In this document: positions 14,887-19,594 of the stretch, one piece after another
How positions within the stretch are numbered: the stretch's first letter is position 1
How the letters are laid out: every line of letters begins with the position of its first letter
IMG/VR virus record: IMGVR_UViG_3300014656_000137
Location: 1-24,249 of that record
Strand: one strand, 5' to 3'
Length of the DNA: 24,249 nt
Source: a virus
Lineage: Duplodnaviria; Caudoviricetes
The notes under the pieces: generated by a model
Databases searched by the model: none
Told to the model about the DNA's origin: nothing
Seen by the model: only the letters and a program-made list of their open reading frames with translations
Position numbers and translations under genes: made by a program

Positions 14887-15867
14887 TTACTCCATGATGC
14901 CGAGGTGGTATTTCAACCGACTGTCCACGGCATCAGCGATTCGCCTGTCTATGCCCTGAAGGGCCTCGGTGACGGCCTTTGTGATTGCGTCAGGGGAAAG
15001 GGTTTCTGAATGCAGAATGGGGAATTCGGAATGCGGAATGGCATCCGGTTCCGTACTCTGGGTTTCATCGGCCTCAATGGAGGCGGTTTCGTGTTGAGGG
15101 TCATGGATGCGCTCCACGTGGACCTTGCCCATGAGGATGATGAGCGCATCGAGTTTTTCGCCGATATTGTCAAGCCGCTTTTCGATCGCCTGCGGTTCAT
15201 CTAAGGGAGGCGATAACAAAAGCGGTTCGTTGTTTTCGTGTCCGTTGTCCGTTGTCCGTTGTCCGTTGCTCGTCCCGGCGGAGCCGCCAGGCGAAGCCGG
15301 ATCCGTGTCGCTCTGCGCTTCCCGCCCTGCGCTTTCCGCTCTGCGCTCTGCGCCTCCAACCTCAAACTTTTTCATCTCCTCATCGCTGATAATCCCCTGC
15401 GCCTTGGCCGCAACCAGGGCATTCGGGTTGCTCGGGATGGTGCACGCGCTGATCTCCCACAGCTCCTGTTCCATATAGTCGTAGCCCCGGATCCCTTTTC
15501 CCCGGTCCACGATCTCGCGCCGGATGGGCCGGAAACCCACGCTGAAGGCCTTGAGGAAACCGCCCTTGTAGAGCTTCCAGATGGTCTCCGCGTAGGGGTA
15601 GGCGTCGGGCTCCGGAAACTTGGGCCTGAACATCAACCGCCCGTCCTCCACCCATATATCCTCTGCCCTGGCCACGGGAGGCTCGCTGTAGTTATGCGCC
15701 CAGGGGATGACGGGGTTTTTCAAGTAATTGTCCATGTTCCACCCCGCAGACATGATCCGATCTCCGTCGCGGTCTATATCCTCGGTGGAGGCCACGGCCA
15801 GGAACGAGCGCTCCTCGTCGTCGATGTCCTTGATCTCGATGTTCAGGGTCTTCAGTATCTTTTCCAT
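14887..15867 (-). CDS. HK97-family prohead protease with a repeat-derived C-terminal extension
   Basis: ASTEDIDRDGD, KNPVIPWAHN, FSVGF and ELWEISACTIPSNPNA motifs. AAGGAG RBS before MEKILK (15867). The longer ORF-track N-terminus overlaps the portal gene. Confidence 0.93.
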   Translation of the reverse strand: MEKILKTLNIEIKDIDDEERSFLAVASTEDIDRDGDRIMSAGWNMDNYLKNPVIPWAHNYSEPPVARAEDIWVEDGRLMFRPKFPEPDAYPYAETIWKLYKGGFLKAFSVGFRPIRREIVDRGKGIRGYDYMEQELWEISACTIPSNPNALVAAKAQGIISDEEMKKFEVGGAERRAESAGREAQSDTDPASPGGSAGTSNGQRTTDNGHENNEPLLLSPPLDEPQAIEKRLDNIGEKLDALIILMGKVHVERIHDPQHETASIEADETQSTEPDAIPHSEFPILHSETLSPDAITKAVTEALQGIDRRIADAVDSRLKYHLGIME

Positions 15868-15885
15868 TATTAGCTCCTTTTCTCT

Positions 15886-15918
15886 TCCCCCTTTGCAAAG
15901 GGGGATCGAGGGGGATTT
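15886..15918. repeat. CCCCCTTT-nn-AAAGGGGG palindromic repeat, copy 2
   Basis: tccccctttgcaaagggggatcgagggggattt, beginning at the TAA of the extended portal gene. Confidence 0.8.
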
Positions 15919-18004
15919 ATTCTTTCCTGACGACCGGCAGGATGGAACATCGTCAGTTGATATCCTCCTCCGGCAGGCCGATGTTTCCAGGCGCAGGTCC
16001 CCGCCCCGCCCCCACATGAAAATCCTCGTCGATGGGGATGGCGCCGTTGCCGGTGTATCGGTTCTCGGCGTCCTGGTGCGTGGGCCGCGCTCCGGGGCCT
16101 GCGATCCACTCTTTTTTCGCCACGACGCCGCTCTGCTTATAGCCCTCGAACGTGCCGAAATTGACCCCGGCGTTGGTCTCGGTCTGGGCGATCCGGAGGG
16201 ACCGCACCTTGTCGGCGTTGTCGAACACCTGGTTGATCCTCGCCGCCATCTGCTGCATGGTCTCGCCGGACTCAAACCCCTGCCTGAGCTGATCCCTGAG
16301 CAGGTCCTGGGTGGTCCGGTTCGCGTCTCTGATCCTGGCCAGGTGATCCCCCAGGTATCTCCTGGCGCGCTCGGAATAGAGGTCGAAAACGATGTCCTGG
16401 GCGCCCACCTGGTTGAGGGCCAGCTCTCCCGCAAATATCAGGTTGTTTTCGAGATAGGGCCTTGCCGCGTCGGTAAGCTCGGTGTCCGCCGCCTGGATAT
16501 TGAATAAAATCCGCTCGGTCATGTCCTTGTGCTCGTCGAGCCAGAGTTTCGTTTTCTTGATTGACATACCCGCCAGGACGCCCTCGATCCTCGGGAATAC
16601 CTGATCCAGGTTCCGGAGGGTCTCCTGTTTTTGTTTGTTAAACAGCTTGCGAAGCCTGGCGCGGAATGGCCTGATGCGGCTCGCGACGCGCCGGTCATGG
16701 GTCAGCCTGGTGCGGTCGCGGGAGGCCTTCGGGATCACCGGGTCCAATTCCGGTTTGACCGGTGCTGCATCGACCGATAGGGTCGCCTCCGGGTTCAGCT
16801 CGTAGGGTGATTCGCCGTACTGGATCTCGGCGATGGATATCCAGGGGACATTCCCCCATTCCACGTCCTCCAGCCCGATCTTCTGCCGCTCCTCGTTGAT
16901 GGAGGTCACCTTGTTCCGCAGGTTGCTCTCCCGCTCGCGGAGATCGAAATCCTCATCGCGCGGCACGCACTCGTCATGCAGGAGGTAAAGCCTGGGGTCG
17001 AAATCGGCTGCCAGAAAACGGGAGACCGTCTCGTCGAAAAACCCGAGCTTGGGCTTGATGCACTCGGAATTGAACGTGATATCCAGGGCCACGCCGTTGG
17101 CTCTGTTCACATCCGCCACCGTCCCCAGCTTGCCGGGCGGTACGTTGTAGGCCTCCAGGATATCCTCCTTGGTCCAGTTGGCCAGGCTCACGAACTCCAT
17201 ATCCTTGGCGTTGGAGCTCAAAATGTTAGCCTTGAGGCCCTTATCCAGGACGGCCGGTTCCCAGGACCTGTTGACGCCCTGGTGCACCCCCTTCCACTCG
17301 ATCAGGAGCCTGCGGGCGTCCTCCGGGCTGATCTCCTGGTCGCTCTCGAAAATCATGTCGGGACGTGCGCTGTTCTGGAAAAAGTTGCGCTGGTAGATCC
17401 GCGATGCCAGGTCAATGTCATAGCTGTAGGCCATCGCCTGGATCGGGCTCGCCCCCTCCAGCCAGTAGATGGGGTGCGGATAATGGAAATAGACGATCTC
17501 CGATGGGGCGTAATTGACGGCGGCGCCCGTGTCGGTCAGGAATTCATAGGACACCAGCTCGCTGCGGGTATCGTTCAGGACGAACCGGGAGAAGAGGGCC
17601 GGAGACAGGGGCCACAACTCCGCAGGCCTGCCCAGGCCGTTTCGAACCTTTAGCCAGAAGGCCATCCCGGTGAGATCCATGTGCATCTGGGTGATGGCGA
17701 TGAGAAACGCCCCGCTCATGTAGGGATTGGGCGACCATAAAAGATCCAGGAGCGGGTGGCGTGTCACCTCCTCGTCATCCTCGTTTCTCTCCACATACAG
17801 CCTATAGGGTATGGACATGACGCGGCGGTAGATGACGCTCACGCATTTGTACACGTGGTTCTGGTAGGCCTTGAGCTGCTCGGTCCGGCTCCCCACGTTG
17901 GTCCAGCCTAAAAACCCGCCATAGCCGCCGCCGGATCCCGAGGCCCCAGGGATCTTGATCCATCCGCGGCGCGCCATCCATTGCTCTATTATGCGTTTGA
18001 TCAT
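15917..18004 (-). CDS. HK97-family portal protein fused to a MuF/SPP1-gp7 head morphogenesis domain; in-frame TGA at 15953-15955 probably decoded as selenocysteine
   Basis: Portal motifs (HPLLDLL..PNP, GASPIQA, NFFQNSARP, INEERQKIGL) followed by MuF motifs (RSLRIAQTET, KKEWIA...R-TH). Ends EDIN-TGA-RCSILPVVRKE-TAA. Confidence 0.9.
15920..15955 (-). promoter_or_regulatory. Candidate bacterial SECIS hairpin directly 3' of UGA
   Basis: UGA CGAUG UUC CA UCCUG C CGGUC G U CAGGA AA GAA. Stem UCCUG/CAGGA starts at +11, with a GGUC-containing apical loop at +17 to +21. Confidence 0.6.
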
Positions 18005-18010
18005 CGTGTC

Positions 18011-18040
18011 CCTATCTGCGTTCGGAAACGCACAGGCAGG
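18011..18040. repeat. 30-bp palindromic element, copy 2
   Basis: cctatctgcgttcggaaacgcacaggcagg inserted in gtgtc^cgtgtccgtg. Confidence 0.9.
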
Positions 18041-18058
18041 CGTGTCCGTGATTTTTTG

Positions 18059-19594
18059 TCATGCCGCCTGCCTCTCTCTTTCGGCTGCCAGTAGGCCCGC
18101 TAATGTATAAATATTAGGCGCCATCCCTCCCTGCAACCCGGCCACCGCCCCCTCCAGCGCGTCCGGGCCGTCATCGTTGACGTTGGCATCCATGATGTAA
18201 ATAAGCTGCTCCACCAGCAGGTCCTGATCGCTGTTTCCCCGCACGAACCGCAATTTCCCGAACTCCACCAGGGGGGATATCCGGTTGATGATCCGGGCGA
18301 TCTTGTCCGTGGCGTGATTGATCTTATTGAGCCGCACAAAACTACCCACACGCTCCGCGTGGCTGCGGTATGAATCGATCAGGAAATCCTGAAACATATT
18401 GATCTCGATGCCCATCGCGCAGCCGAACTCCTCGCAGACCTGCCACACCCTCACCCACATCTCATTGACCGTGGCGTGCCTGATCCAGGCATGGAGCACG
18501 TCCATTTTGCCGGTGTCTTGTGCCTTGCCCACCGCCACGATCGCCTTGTAATCATTGGTCTCCCCGCTCTTGCCGGAGGGATCCAGGAAACTGGATATGG
18601 CCCAGGTCTTCCGGATCAACAATTCAACCGCAGGAACGTAGATAATCCAGTCCTCCTTGATGGGGCTGTCCTCGGCGCCCACCAGGTTGCGCATCTCCTT
18701 GTTGAACCGCACCGTCCCCATCTGGCGACGGCGCCGCTCGATCCGCTCCTCCGGCCACAGCCCAGGCCAAAGGGGCCGCTGCTCCGGCTTCTTGTAGTCG
18801 ATCCAGCAGTCATAAACCCTTGCGTGCGGATAGAGCTTTCCCCCGGTCTCCTCGTCGATCATGTTGATGAGCTGGGAGAGCACGGATCTGGGCGAGAACA
18901 GATTGCCCACCATGAGCATGCTGTACCCGTCTGCCAGCGATCCCAACACGGCCATGAGCAACCAGTCCAGGGCCTCCTTGACCAGCTTCGGGTTTTTGAC
19001 GTTCTTGTCGTTCTCCAGGTCGTCGATGATCACCCGGTCGGGCCTGTATTGCATATTCTTCAACCCACGCACCTTTTCGCCCCGGCCCCTGGCCAGGATC
19101 CGCACGCCGGCGGCGGTCGTGAAATCCGCATCACGCCATTTGCGGCCCCTGAACTCCCCGAAATCATGAATCAGCCGGGGGTTCTCCTCCAGCTCGATCT
19201 TGATCGGCAGGGTGAAGCCCGTGGCCTGGTCGTTGGAATCCGACACGATCATCACGAAATGTTTCATTGCGAAGGCGGCGTCATGGATCGGCACGCCGAA
19301 TGAATAAAAGGTCGATTTCGCGTGCTCCCTGGGCGCTGCCACCGGCACGATCTCGTCGTGGATATCCGCCAGGTCGCTCCACTCCTCATGAAACGGCTCA
19401 AAGGGTTTGGAGAAATAGTGCGGCAGATAGGTCTTGAAAAAGAAGAGCCGGTCCCACCGCGCTCGATCCTTGCGCTCGGCCTGCTTCTCCGTCGTGTCGG
19501 CATCAAACGGCGATACGCTCGCCTTGATCCACTCGCGGAGATCCGATGCCCATTGATCGAACTTATATTCAGTGAGCCTGGGCCGCTTTTTCAT
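18059..19594 (-). CDS. terL: Terminase large subunit
   Basis: Walker A-like APREHAKST, Walker B IIDDLE, nuclease acidic motifs FLDPS...DYKA and DDGPDALEGA. Confidence 0.93.
   Translation of the reverse strand: MKKRPRLTEYKFDQWASDLREWIKASVSPFDADTTEKQAERKDRARWDRLFFFKTYLPHYFSKPFEPFHEEWSDLADIHDEIVPVAAPREHAKSTFYSFGVPIHDAAFAMKHFVMIVSDSNDQATGFTLPIKIELEENPRLIHDFGEFRGRKWRDADFTTAAGVRILARGRGEKVRGLKNMQYRPDRVIIDDLENDKNVKNPKLVKEALDWLLMAVLGSLADGYSMLMVGNLFSPRSVLSQLINMIDEETGGKLYPHARVYDCWIDYKKPEQRPLWPGLWPEERIERRRRQMGTVRFNKEMRNLVGAEDSPIKEDWIIYVPAVELLIRKTWAISSFLDPSGKSGETNDYKAIVAVGKAQDTGKMDVLHAWIRHATVNEMWVRVWQVCEEFGCAMGIEINMFQDFLIDSYRSHAERVGSFVRLNKINHATDKIARIINRISPLVEFGKLRFVRGNSDQDLLVEQLIYIMDANVNDDGPDALEGAVAGLQGGMAPNIYTLAGLLAAERERQAA

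What the first reader, a model, noticed from the sequence alone, without database searches (positions are those of the whole stretch)
15917..15975. Candidate phage-encoded selenoprotein: UGA replaces the first Cys of the MuF/gp7 N-C-R-C motif and is followed by a SECIS-like hairpin
Seen: the portal-MuF frame reads GAG GAT ATC AAC TGA CGA TGT TCC ATC CTG CCG GTC GTC AGG AAA GAA TAA, i.e. EDIN*RCSILPVVRKE. The intergenic palindrome starts only at the TAA, not at the TGA. The mRNA after UGA can fold as UCCUG-C-[CGGUC]-G-U-CAGGA starting at +11, with a lower UUC/GAA stem. An alternative 6-bp pairing UGACGA/UCGUCA would sequester the codon itself. Established: MuF/SPP1-gp7 domains end in an N-C-R-C motif followed by a short hydrophobic strand. 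Bacterial Sec insertion needs a SelB-binding hairpin just 3' of UGA. As I recall it, the E. coli fdhF element has a GGUC-containing loop at nearly the same distance (verify). Other genes here end in TGA (e.g. 2711, 11344, 18059, 20288), so this is not global stop-codon reassignment. Inference: the phage borrows host SelABC/SelD to make a U-x-C version of a head protein fused to its portal, possibly tying full-length MuF synthesis to selenium status.
Basis: partly seen in the sequence, partly recalled or inferred. Interest (0 to 1): 0.92.

Follow-up and report, generated by a model that had tools for sequence, protein, structure and literature searches.

The report
Likely selenocysteine codon in phage MuF
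An uncultured phage's portal-MuF head gene has a UGA exactly where relatives have an invariant cysteine, coding continues after it, and the codon is most likely read as selenocysteine, which I found reported for no natural bacteriophage protein.

Summary
The portal-MuF gene (minus strand, 18004-15956) meets TGA at 15955-15953, then 11 in-frame codons (RCSILPVVRKE) and TAA. The TGA replaces the first Cys of N-C-R-C, an invariant column in 47- and 60-sequence alignments.

It is not a one-off. Ten distinct MuF sequences stop at this codon. TGA was read in all 7 with DNA. Two of those lie in bacterial genomes that carry SelA and SelB. One genome also has tRNA-Sec(UCA) and a SelD gene with its own in-frame TGA.

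Coding continues after the TGA: 10-12 conserved codons in five loci, 234 codons carrying a PBECR2 nuclease domain in one, and at least 156 codons in another.

All 7 have a hairpin fitting the published bacterial SECIS consensus if one mismatch is allowed (6 of 7 without), against 21 of 111 Cys controls. The window's loop is GGUC at +21-24. E. coli fdhF has GGUC at +22-25.

TGA ends 5 other ORFs here, so the code is not reassigned.

Weak points: this phage's host is unknown, the window's hairpin is marginal, one Cys relative keeps the same hairpin, and nothing is tested at the bench. The scan noted the same phenomenon on other DNA (e1-6036874).

The parts
15956..18004 (-). Portal-MuF fusion ORF up to Asn683. 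HK97-type portal at residues 50-375; MuF domain from about residue 569.
   Evidence: The closest solved portals match by sequence.
15953..15955 (-). In-frame UGA at the first Cys of the N-C-R-C motif. This is the predicted Sec codon.
   Evidence: The column is invariant Cys in alignments A2 (47 sequences) and A3 (60 sequences). Other MuF genes have TGA at the same column.
15920..15952 (-). Eleven in-frame codons, RCSILPVVRKE. They are predicted to form the last beta-strand of the MuF core.
   Evidence: strand at model residues 219-224, block pLDDT about 96. Also.
15917..15919 (-). TAA, the predicted true stop of the full-length protein.
   Evidence: Relatives stop at a similar distance.
15919..15948 (-). 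SECIS-like stem-loop inside the tail-coding sequence. Upper stem 15942-15925; GGUC loop 15935-15932.
   Evidence: Compared with E. coli fdhF.
15887..15904 (-). Intergenic 18-nt palindrome between the TAA and the next gene. It lies outside the recoding signal, has no U-run after it, and its role is unknown.
14887..15867 (-). Next gene, head maturation protease. ATG at 15867 is preceded by AAAGGAG. Given for context.

Best explanation
The UGA at 15955-15953 is most likely decoded as selenocysteine by the host's SelA/SelB/SelD/tRNA-Sec system, which would give a 695-residue portal-MuF protein with U-R-C in place of the family's invariant C-x-C.

Shown:
- The codon, the open tail and the hairpin are in the sequence.
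- The same codon is TGA in other, diverged MuF genes whose downstream reading frame is conserved.
- Two such genes sit in genomes that carry Sec machinery.

Inferred:
- SelB would bind the +14 to +31 stem-loop (GGUC loop at +21-24) as the ribosome reaches UGA and deliver Sec-tRNA.
- Ribosomes that fail to recode would release a 683-residue product lacking the last predicted core beta-strand.
- The replaced Cys would be the reactive (redox, nucleophilic or metal-binding) residue of the MuF domain, as in other Sec/Cys pairs.
For: (a) Position. Of the 58 non-self hits, 53 have [N/S/C]-C-x-C, 4 end on the residue just before it (P0006, P0014, P0018, P0019), and 1 has an unrelated C-terminus.

(b) DNA. 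TGA was seen at that codon in all 7 distinct loci for which DNA was available:
- the window;
- L002, identical to L003 and L014;
- L012;
- L212 and L224;
- L188 and L201 in bacterial genomes.
The same motif with TGA at the second Cys gave 1 stretch in IMG/VR, and that was a chance match.

(c) Local alternatives. Each of the 7 loci has 3-5 other one-step mutational routes to a stop in the 8 flanking codons (5 before, 3 after), yet all 7 stops are at the first Cys.

(d) Downstream frame.
- Tails are RCSILPVVRKE, RCTMLPVVRE, RCTILPVVRAE and RCAALPVVIGEE.
- Window against L012: the 9 tail codons are 1 identical, 7 synonymous, 1 non-synonymous. The upstream 60 codons are 14, 32 and 14.
- L188 continues for 234 codons and gives Phage_Mu_F plus PBECR2. 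That is a known single-polypeptide architecture (passages of PMC5512222). The gene sits next to a Mu-type portal gene.
- L212 stays open for at least 156 codons.

(e) Hairpin. The bSECIS consensus is quoted from PMC13188914.
- Strict reading: 6 of 7 TGA loci pass, against 15 of 111 Cys controls.
- One irregularity allowed: 7 of 7, against 21 of 111.
- Fisher test on the first five loci (5 of 5 against 21 of 111) gives p = 4e-4.
- L169, a Cys copy with the same tail peptide as L012, has lost the hairpin through synonymous changes.
- L002 and L012 share 6 of 9 tail codons, against 11 of 60 upstream.

(f) Hosts.
- G049 has SelA, SelB, tRNA-SeC(tca) at 77.5 bits, and a SelD with an in-frame TGA whose SECIS loop GGGAU starts at +23.
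- G284 has SelA and SelB.

(g) TGA ends 5 other ORFs in the window.

(h) The tail is a confident beta-strand of the MuF core in the model, pLDDT 94.3.
Against: - The host of this phage is unknown, so the required machinery is not shown for it. No tRNA gene lies in the window, which holds about 41% of the genome.
- The window's hairpin fails my strict reading of the consensus. It passes only a relaxed rule that I wrote after seeing it.
- Folding energies are unremarkable for 3 of 5 loci: z = -0.79, +0.38 and +0.24. A true SECIS, fdhF, also scores only z = +0.10.
- One Cys-bearing relative (L161) has the very same 8-bp GGU hairpin as L012. The P-V-V-R codons favour part of the pairing in any case.
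- In the quick tree the 5 TGA rows are scattered, with at least 4 switches. Single alleles could therefore be young, which weakens the tail-conservation argument.
- SelB is present in 375 of 401 genomes of that phylum, so its presence in G049 and G284 meets only a necessary condition.
- G284 showed no SelD over the cut-off and no UCA tRNA-Sec.
- No RNA, protein or selenium data exist.
Confidence: 0.75

Rival explanations
1. The TGA is a true stop. These are truncated MuF alleles, either recurrent loss-of-function mutations or tolerated or selected truncations, and the tail is an untranslated relic.
For: - TGC/TGT to TGA is one mutational step.
- TGA rows are scattered in the tree, so alleles may be young.
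- MuF copies broken by other stops exist: 2 with TAG and 1 with TGA elsewhere among the matches.
- The window's hairpin is marginal.
Against: - All 10 distinct truncated or TGA sequences stop at the same codon. There is none at the second Cys or at the neighbouring one-step codons.
- The event recurs in three unrelated MuF architectures: portal-MuF fusion, Mu-like MuF-PBECR2, and a 331-residue read-through frame with a C-terminal MuF domain.
- A true stop would cut off a 234-codon PBECR2 region in L188, at least 156 open codons in L212, and a core beta-strand here.
- Tails keep frame, length and residues.
Confidence: 0.1
2. The UGA is read through without selenium. Either a near-cognate tRNA (Trp or Cys) reads it at low level, perhaps stimulated by the hairpin, or a SelB-like factor delivers a Cys-charged Sec-like tRNA. 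Either route would set a ratio of short to full-length protein.
For: - The frame is conserved after the UGA.
- A hairpin could stimulate read-through in general.
- G284 carries a 93-nt tRNA-Sec-like gene that ARAGORN reads with a GCA (Cys) anticodon, which shows unusual Sec-type tRNAs in that lineage.
Against: - Generic read-through has no reason to sit on the one invariant Cys codon in every case.
- The hairpins fit the SelB-type consensus in spacing and G-containing loop.
- A GCA anticodon would not read UGA.
- The genomes concerned have SelA and SelB.
Confidence: 0.1
3. The TGA is a sequencing or assembly error, or the phage or host uses a code in which TGA is a sense codon throughout.
For: A single metagenomic contig could carry an error. 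Recoded phages are known (recalled, from no call).
Against: - An independent run's contig matches 15500-16216 with 0 differences.
- L002, L003 and L014 are three separate records with an identical TGA region.
- TGA ends 5 other ORFs in the window and ends the tails of L002, L201 and L224.
Confidence: 0.02

Closest known systems
Bacterial selenoprotein genes with an in-ORF SECIS read by SelB (prototype E. coli fdhF)
   Same: - An in-frame UGA aligned with Cys in homologues.
- A stem-loop just 3' of the UGA inside the coding sequence.
- A GGUC apical loop at +21-24 here, against +22-25 in fdhF.
- Spacing and G-in-loop as in the published consensus.
   Different: - The gene belongs to a phage and encodes a virion (portal-MuF) protein, not a redox enzyme of cellular metabolism.
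- The stem has a C.U mismatch instead of fdhF's bulge.
- SelB binding and Se insertion are untested.
- The motif is U-x-C, near the C-terminus.
MuF / SPP1 gp7 / Mu gp30 head-morphogenesis domain (Pfam PF04233)
   Same: - The Pfam match is over the cut-off once the UGA is read through.
- The family's C-terminal N-C-x-C motif and the hydrophobic strand after it are present.
- The fusion to a portal is a known architecture (annotations; PMC5512222 passages).
   Different: - The first Cys codon is UGA.
- No biochemical role of the C-x-C was found in the passages read.
- No solved structure resembles the domain. Foldseek gave no match at E <= 0.001. The best VIA Z for the 73-residue C-x-C subdomain is 2.9.
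Poxvirus glutathione peroxidase selenoproteins (molluscum contagiosum, fowlpox)
   Same: A virus-encoded gene with a UGA read as Sec by host machinery. In fowlpox the SECIS lies within the coding region (passages of PMC8310308).
   Different: - Those are eukaryotic viruses with captured cellular GPx genes and eukaryotic SECIS elements.
- This is a bacterial-type element in a native phage structural gene.
tRNA-Sec genes reported in huge phage genomes (PMC10747093)
   Same: It points to Sec use by phages (passages read).
   Different: - That paper names tRNA genes only and no phage selenoprotein.
- This window has no tRNA gene and would rely on the host.

Membership tests
Bacterial-type selenoprotein gene (UGA + bSECIS) | In-frame UGA aligned with a conserved Cys in homologues (Sec/Cys pair) | tested here: met
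   The column is invariant Cys in the 47- and 60-sequence alignments.
Bacterial-type selenoprotein gene (UGA + bSECIS) | [quoted passage not shown] | tested here: met
   Seven distinct DNA loci, plus 3 proteins that end at that column.
Bacterial-type selenoprotein gene (UGA + bSECIS) | Reading frame and residues conserved after the UGA | tested here: met
Bacterial-type selenoprotein gene (UGA + bSECIS) | Stem-loop meeting the bSECIS consensus: loop 3-9 nt, upper stem 4-16 bp, G in the first two loop positions, spacing 16-37 nt, MFE <= -7.5 | tested here: inconclusive
   The window fails if the upper stem must be contiguous. It passes with one 1x1 mismatch allowed: GGUC loop, spacing 17, 6 bp, -9.4. 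The other 6 TGA loci pass the strict reading.
Bacterial-type selenoprotein gene (UGA + bSECIS) | Host encodes selA, selB, selC and selD | not testable with these tools
   The host of this phage is unknown. For TGA-type MuF genes in genomes: G049 has all four. G284 has SelA and SelB only.
Bacterial-type selenoprotein gene (UGA + bSECIS) | Selenium incorporated at the UGA | not testable with these tools
   This needs 75Se labelling or mass spectrometry.
Phage_Mu_F (PF04233) | Pfam score over the gathering cut-off | tested here: met
   38.9 bits against 29.6 on the read-through product, and 33.9 bits in the six-frame search. The table-11 product P0001 carries only PF04860 in the precomputed list.
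HK97-family phage portal (PF04860) | Pfam score over the cut-off, and sequence match to solved portals | tested here: met
   196 bits. PDB portals match at E = 1e-66.
E. coli fdhF-type SECIS | GGUC apical loop about 22 nt after the UGA, on a short helix with a bulged U | tested here: inconclusive
   Loop sequence and distance match: +21-24 against +22-25. The bulged U is replaced by a C.U mismatch. SelB binding could not be tested.

The most novel reading that the evidence does not exclude
MuF/gp7 head-morphogenesis domains are a natural bacteriophage selenoprotein family, spread over several phage lineages that infect Sec-using anaerobes. The Sec/Cys pair marks the first Cys of the invariant C-x-C as a reactive catalytic or redox centre. 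If so, this 'structural' minor head domain of unknown function is really a thiol/selenol-dependent enzyme or sensor carried in the capsid, and production of complete virions depends on the host's selenium supply.
Probability: 0.4. Interest if true: 0.9.

Novelty: new member of a known kind. Interest (0 to 1): 0.8.

Why it matters
- If true, this would add a phage virion protein to the known selenoproteins. The searches and two selenoproteome reviews I checked name none. The only viral selenoproteins named in the review passages read are poxvirus GPx.
- Gene callers truncate or split these genes, so phage and prophage annotation is affected. Here 12 residues are lost. In L188 a whole PBECR2 nuclease region (234 codons) is cut off.
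[quoted passage not shown] The finding therefore points to one specific residue as the functional centre of a widespread domain whose biochemical role is unknown and which has no solved structural relative.
- It also predicts a link between selenium availability and phage production in anoxic habitats.

Tried and rejected
Sequence and family searches that gave nothing useful
- Single-protein search of IMG/VR: 8 pattern matches, none a relative.
- Rfam: 0 matches at gathering scores. Only weak chance-level rows around the site at E <= 10.
- Isolated phages in GenBank: no close relative, best 24.8% identity.
- The 50%-identity representative library added only one more truncated protein (P0068), because TGA and Cys forms fall into the same clusters.

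Chance matches dropped
- Metagenome pattern scan: 11 of 14 stretches were chance.
- I-N-TGA-R-C pattern scan: 17 of 21 stretches were chance.

Structure
- Foldseek against the PDB found nothing at E <= 0.001 for the 227-residue model or the 73-residue model.
- VIA wide gave only generic helical bundles (Z <= 8.5, residues 11-159) for the large model. The best Z was 2.9 for the C-x-C subdomain.
- My recollection that MuF might resemble ADP-ribosyltransferases found no support and is dropped.

Hairpin energy
- Folding-energy z-scores do not separate these hairpins from shuffles in 3 of 5 loci. A true SECIS (fdhF) does not stand out either.

Host evidence
- Association with host Sec machinery could not be tested, because SelB is in 375 of 401 genomes of the sampled phylum.

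Reads and expression
- No RNA holder was listed among the sequencing runs.
- The second, narrow read-laying (15880-16030) did not complete: all reported the machine busy.
- Whether the roughly 94-96% variants in runs X5 and X6 keep the TGA therefore stays open. No difference at 15953-15955 appears among the rows shown, but 62 rows were not shown.

Tree
- The careful tree search did not finish, so the quick tree was used. P0005 and P0022 were left out, and only P0001-P0035 were included.

Not obtained or not read
- DNA for P0006, P0014 and P0019 could not be fetched.
- Supplementary tables of selenoproteome surveys were not read, so a MuF entry could be hidden there.
Full report
1. WHAT IS THERE

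The window is a whole IMG/VR virus record of 24,249 bases, estimated at about 41% of a genome. It has 56.5% G+C.

Its minus strand carries a tailed-phage late module:
- small and large terminase;
- a portal-MuF fusion;
- a head maturation protease and a major head protein;
- head-tail adaptor, neck and tail-terminator proteins;
- tape measure and a tail fibre protein;
- holin and endolysin.

The portal-MuF ORF runs from 18004 to a TGA at 15955-15953 (683 codons). In the same frame follow CGA TGT TCC ATC CTG CCG GTC GTC AGG AAA GAA TAA, which is RCSILPVVRKE and a stop.

Read through, the protein matches Phage_portal (196 bits) and Phage_Mu_F (38.9 bits against a cut-off of 29.6) up to profile position 111 of 112.

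2. THE CODON IS THE FAMILY'S INVARIANT CYSTEINE, AND THE STOP RECURS THERE

Conservation. In an alignment of 47 relatives only four columns of the MuF part are invariant. Two of them are the C-x-C cysteines. In a 60-sequence alignment of the last 73 residues the invariant columns are W11, C62 and C64. In the wider representative library two proteins have Glu at the first position (N-E-R-C), so the Cys is not absolute across all MuF.

Protein termini. One search gave 59 proteins including the window's own. Of the other 58:
- 53 have [N/S/C]-C-x-C;
- 4 end on the residue just before it (P0006, P0014, P0018, P0019; 52-60% identical to the query);
- 1 has an unrelated C-terminus.

DNA. Where DNA could be read, the codon is TGA in every case.

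| Locus | Source | Reading after the TGA |
|---|---|---|
| Window | this record | RCSILPVVRKE, then TAA |
| L002 = L003 = L014 | three separate records, identical here | RCTMLPVVRE, then TGA |
| L012 | metagenome contig | RCTILPVVRAE, then TAG |
| L224 | IMG/VR | RCAALPVVIGEE, then TGA |
| L212 | IMG/VR | RCGILPVVIGAEKPPPP..., open for at least 156 codons |
| L188 | bacterial genome G049 | RCGATS..., 234 codons |
| L201 | bacterial genome G284 | RCCWLPREAAPK, then TGA |

L188 and L201 came from a Pfam search of 401 genomes of the phylum of a Deltaproteobacteria MAG: 66 genomes had a match, and 3 matches had an in-frame TGA. L188 reads ...WYPPNGYR-TGA-RCGATS... and L201 reads ...IIPVHTF-TGA-RCCWLPREAAPK-TGA. 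The third TGA match (L202) has its TGA elsewhere.

Frequency. In IMG/VR the motif EEDIN-Cys-R-C occurs in about 200 stretches, of which 120 were listed. The TGA form occurs in 2 stretches, to which the window's own record adds one more.

Controls for position.
- The same motif with TGA at the second Cys gave one stretch, and that was a chance match.
- Each of the 7 loci has 3-5 other one-step routes to a stop in the 8 flanking codons.

3. THE FRAME AFTER THE UGA IS MAINTAINED

The lineages are old. Window against L012: the 60 codons upstream are 14 identical, 32 synonymous and 14 non-synonymous. The nine tail codons are 1, 7 and 1.

L188's read-through product is Phage_Mu_F (71-183) followed by PBECR2 (292-412). 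It lies next to a Mu-type portal gene. MuF-PBECR is a described single-polypeptide architecture and includes Mu gp30 itself (passages of PMC5512222).

In the AlphaFold model (pLDDT 94.3) the tail residues SILPVV form a strand of the small sheet of the MuF core. The 73-residue subdomain model agrees (pLDDT 94.2). A product ending at the UGA would lack that strand.

4. THE HAIRPIN

The published bacterial SECIS consensus, from the Fig. 2 legend of PMC13188914 (passages), requires:
- an apical loop of 3-9 nt;
- an upper stem of 4-16 bp;
- G in the first two loop positions;
- 16-37 nt between the UGA and the loop;
- MFE <= -7.5 kcal/mol.

I coded this and applied it to the TGA loci and to 111 unique Cys-bearing EEDINCRC loci.

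| Reading of the consensus | TGA loci passing | Cys controls passing |
|---|---|---|
| Contiguous stem of at least 4 bp | 6 of 7 (the window fails) | 15 of 111 |
| One mismatch or bulge allowed | 7 of 7 | 21 of 111 |

A Fisher test on the first five loci gives p = 4e-4. The relaxed rule was written after I had seen the window's hairpin, so it is post hoc.

There are five different designs:

| Locus | Apical loop | First loop position |
|---|---|---|
| Window | GGUC | +21 |
| L002, L012 | GGU | +24 |
| L212, L224 | AGUU | +24 |
| L188 | GGC | +27 |
| L201 | CGGG | +22 |

For comparison, E. coli fdhF has GGUC at +22-25. The selenoprotein SelD of G049 has GGGAU at +23.

Matched comparisons point both ways.
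- L169 (the same record as L005) encodes the same tail peptide as L012 but has lost the hairpin through synonymous changes.
- L161, a Cys copy, keeps the identical hairpin.
- L002 and L012 share 6 of 9 tail codons against 11 of 60 upstream. That suggests selection on the RNA itself.

Energy z-scores are unremarkable for three of five loci, and equally so for fdhF.

5. SEC MACHINERY

- G049 has SelA, SelB, tRNA-SeC(tca) at 77.5 bits, and a SelD that itself has an in-frame TGA.
- G284 has SelA and SelB. No SelD over the cut-off was found. Its best tRNA-Sec-like gene has a GCA anticodon.
- SelB is present in 375 of 401 genomes of that phylum. This meets a necessary condition and is not an association.
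- The window's own host is unknown. The runs that hold the window are labelled groundwater metagenomes.

6. ALTERNATIVES

- Global reassignment is excluded. TGA ends five other ORFs here and ends the tails of L002, L201 and L224.
- Assembly error is unlikely.
- Plain truncation does not explain why every stop is on this one codon in three MuF architectures, nor the long open regions after it.
- Selenium-independent read-through cannot be excluded by sequence alone.
- The TGA rows are scattered within one 17-row clade of the quick tree of 33 rows, with at least 4 switches. This is typical of Sec/Cys families, but it also means single alleles may be young.
- L002 and L012 (75% identical, same hairpin) may share the TGA by descent, as may L212 and L224 (67%). 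This is not proven, because L168, a Cys copy without the hairpin, is as close to L224 (72%).

7. WHAT IS KNOWN

My full-text searches found no natural bacteriophage selenoprotein (listings and abstracts only).
- Two reviews of prokaryotic selenoproteomes contain no occurrence of phage, virus or viral. The 2026 review also has no occurrence of PF04233 (term searches of the main text).
- A recoding review names only poxvirus GPx (passages).
- One paper reports tRNA-Sec genes in huge phages (passages).
- Supplements were not read.

Two others (e1-6198567, e1-6206538) are negative cases elsewhere.

The MuF domain has no solved relative by sequence and none that the structure searches found. Its C-x-C has no role described in the passages I read.

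8. VERDICT

This is most likely a genuine Sec codon in a phage head protein. It would be a new selenoprotein family using the ordinary bacterial mechanism. Confidence for this window is about 0.75. The recurring recoding at the MuF cysteine is better supported than the claim for this one phage.

Noticed in passing
L204:155-247 (genome G284, contig 6): A 93-nt gene scores 52.6 bits on the tRNA-Sec model (over the cut-off), but ARAGORN reads its anticodon as GCA (Cys). It is a Sec-like tRNA with a Cys anticodon, in a genome that also has a TGA-type MuF.
   Followed up: partly
L202 (genome G379, contig 32, 45-377, minus strand): A MuF domain has one in-frame TGA right after a C-A-Y-C motif. This is not at the C-x-C of the C-terminus. 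It could be a broken gene, an error, or another recoding site.
   Followed up: partly
L161 (IMG/VR; Cys form, tail CRCTTLPVVRAD): This Cys-bearing relative carries the identical 8-bp GGU-loop hairpin of the TGA-bearing L012 (CTGCCCGTGGTACGGGCAG). It may be a recent Sec-to-Cys switch, or the hairpin may have another role.
   Followed up: partly
window 15887-15904: An 18-nt perfect palindrome, CCCCCTTTGCAAAGGGGG, lies between the TAA of portal-MuF and the ribosome-binding site of the protease gene. No U-run follows it. Its role is unknown.
   Followed up: no
window 18005-18061: The large terminase ORF ends in a TGA that lies in the same frame as the portal-MuF ORF, 18 codons before its ATG. This is probably coincidence.
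   Followed up: no
P0067 and P0075 (representative library): Two MuF proteins have N-E-R-C, with Glu in place of the first Cys. The residue is therefore not absolutely required in all MuF lineages.
   Followed up: no
L212 (IMG/VR), after the TGA: The frame stays open for at least 156 codons: a Pro-rich linker (PPPPKPPEPKPPEP) and then a further region of unknown family that runs off the locus.
   Followed up: no
L232:8900-8950 (E. coli fdhF SECIS): The textbook SECIS scores z = +0.10 in the dinucleotide-shuffle folding test (103 of 200 shuffles fold as well). That test cannot be used to reject SECIS candidates.
   Followed up: yes
window 14887-16434: The mechanical ORF list gives a 515-aa TTG-start ORF that overlaps the portal-MuF tail. 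The protease gene more likely starts at the ATG at 15867, behind AAAGGAG.
   Followed up: partly
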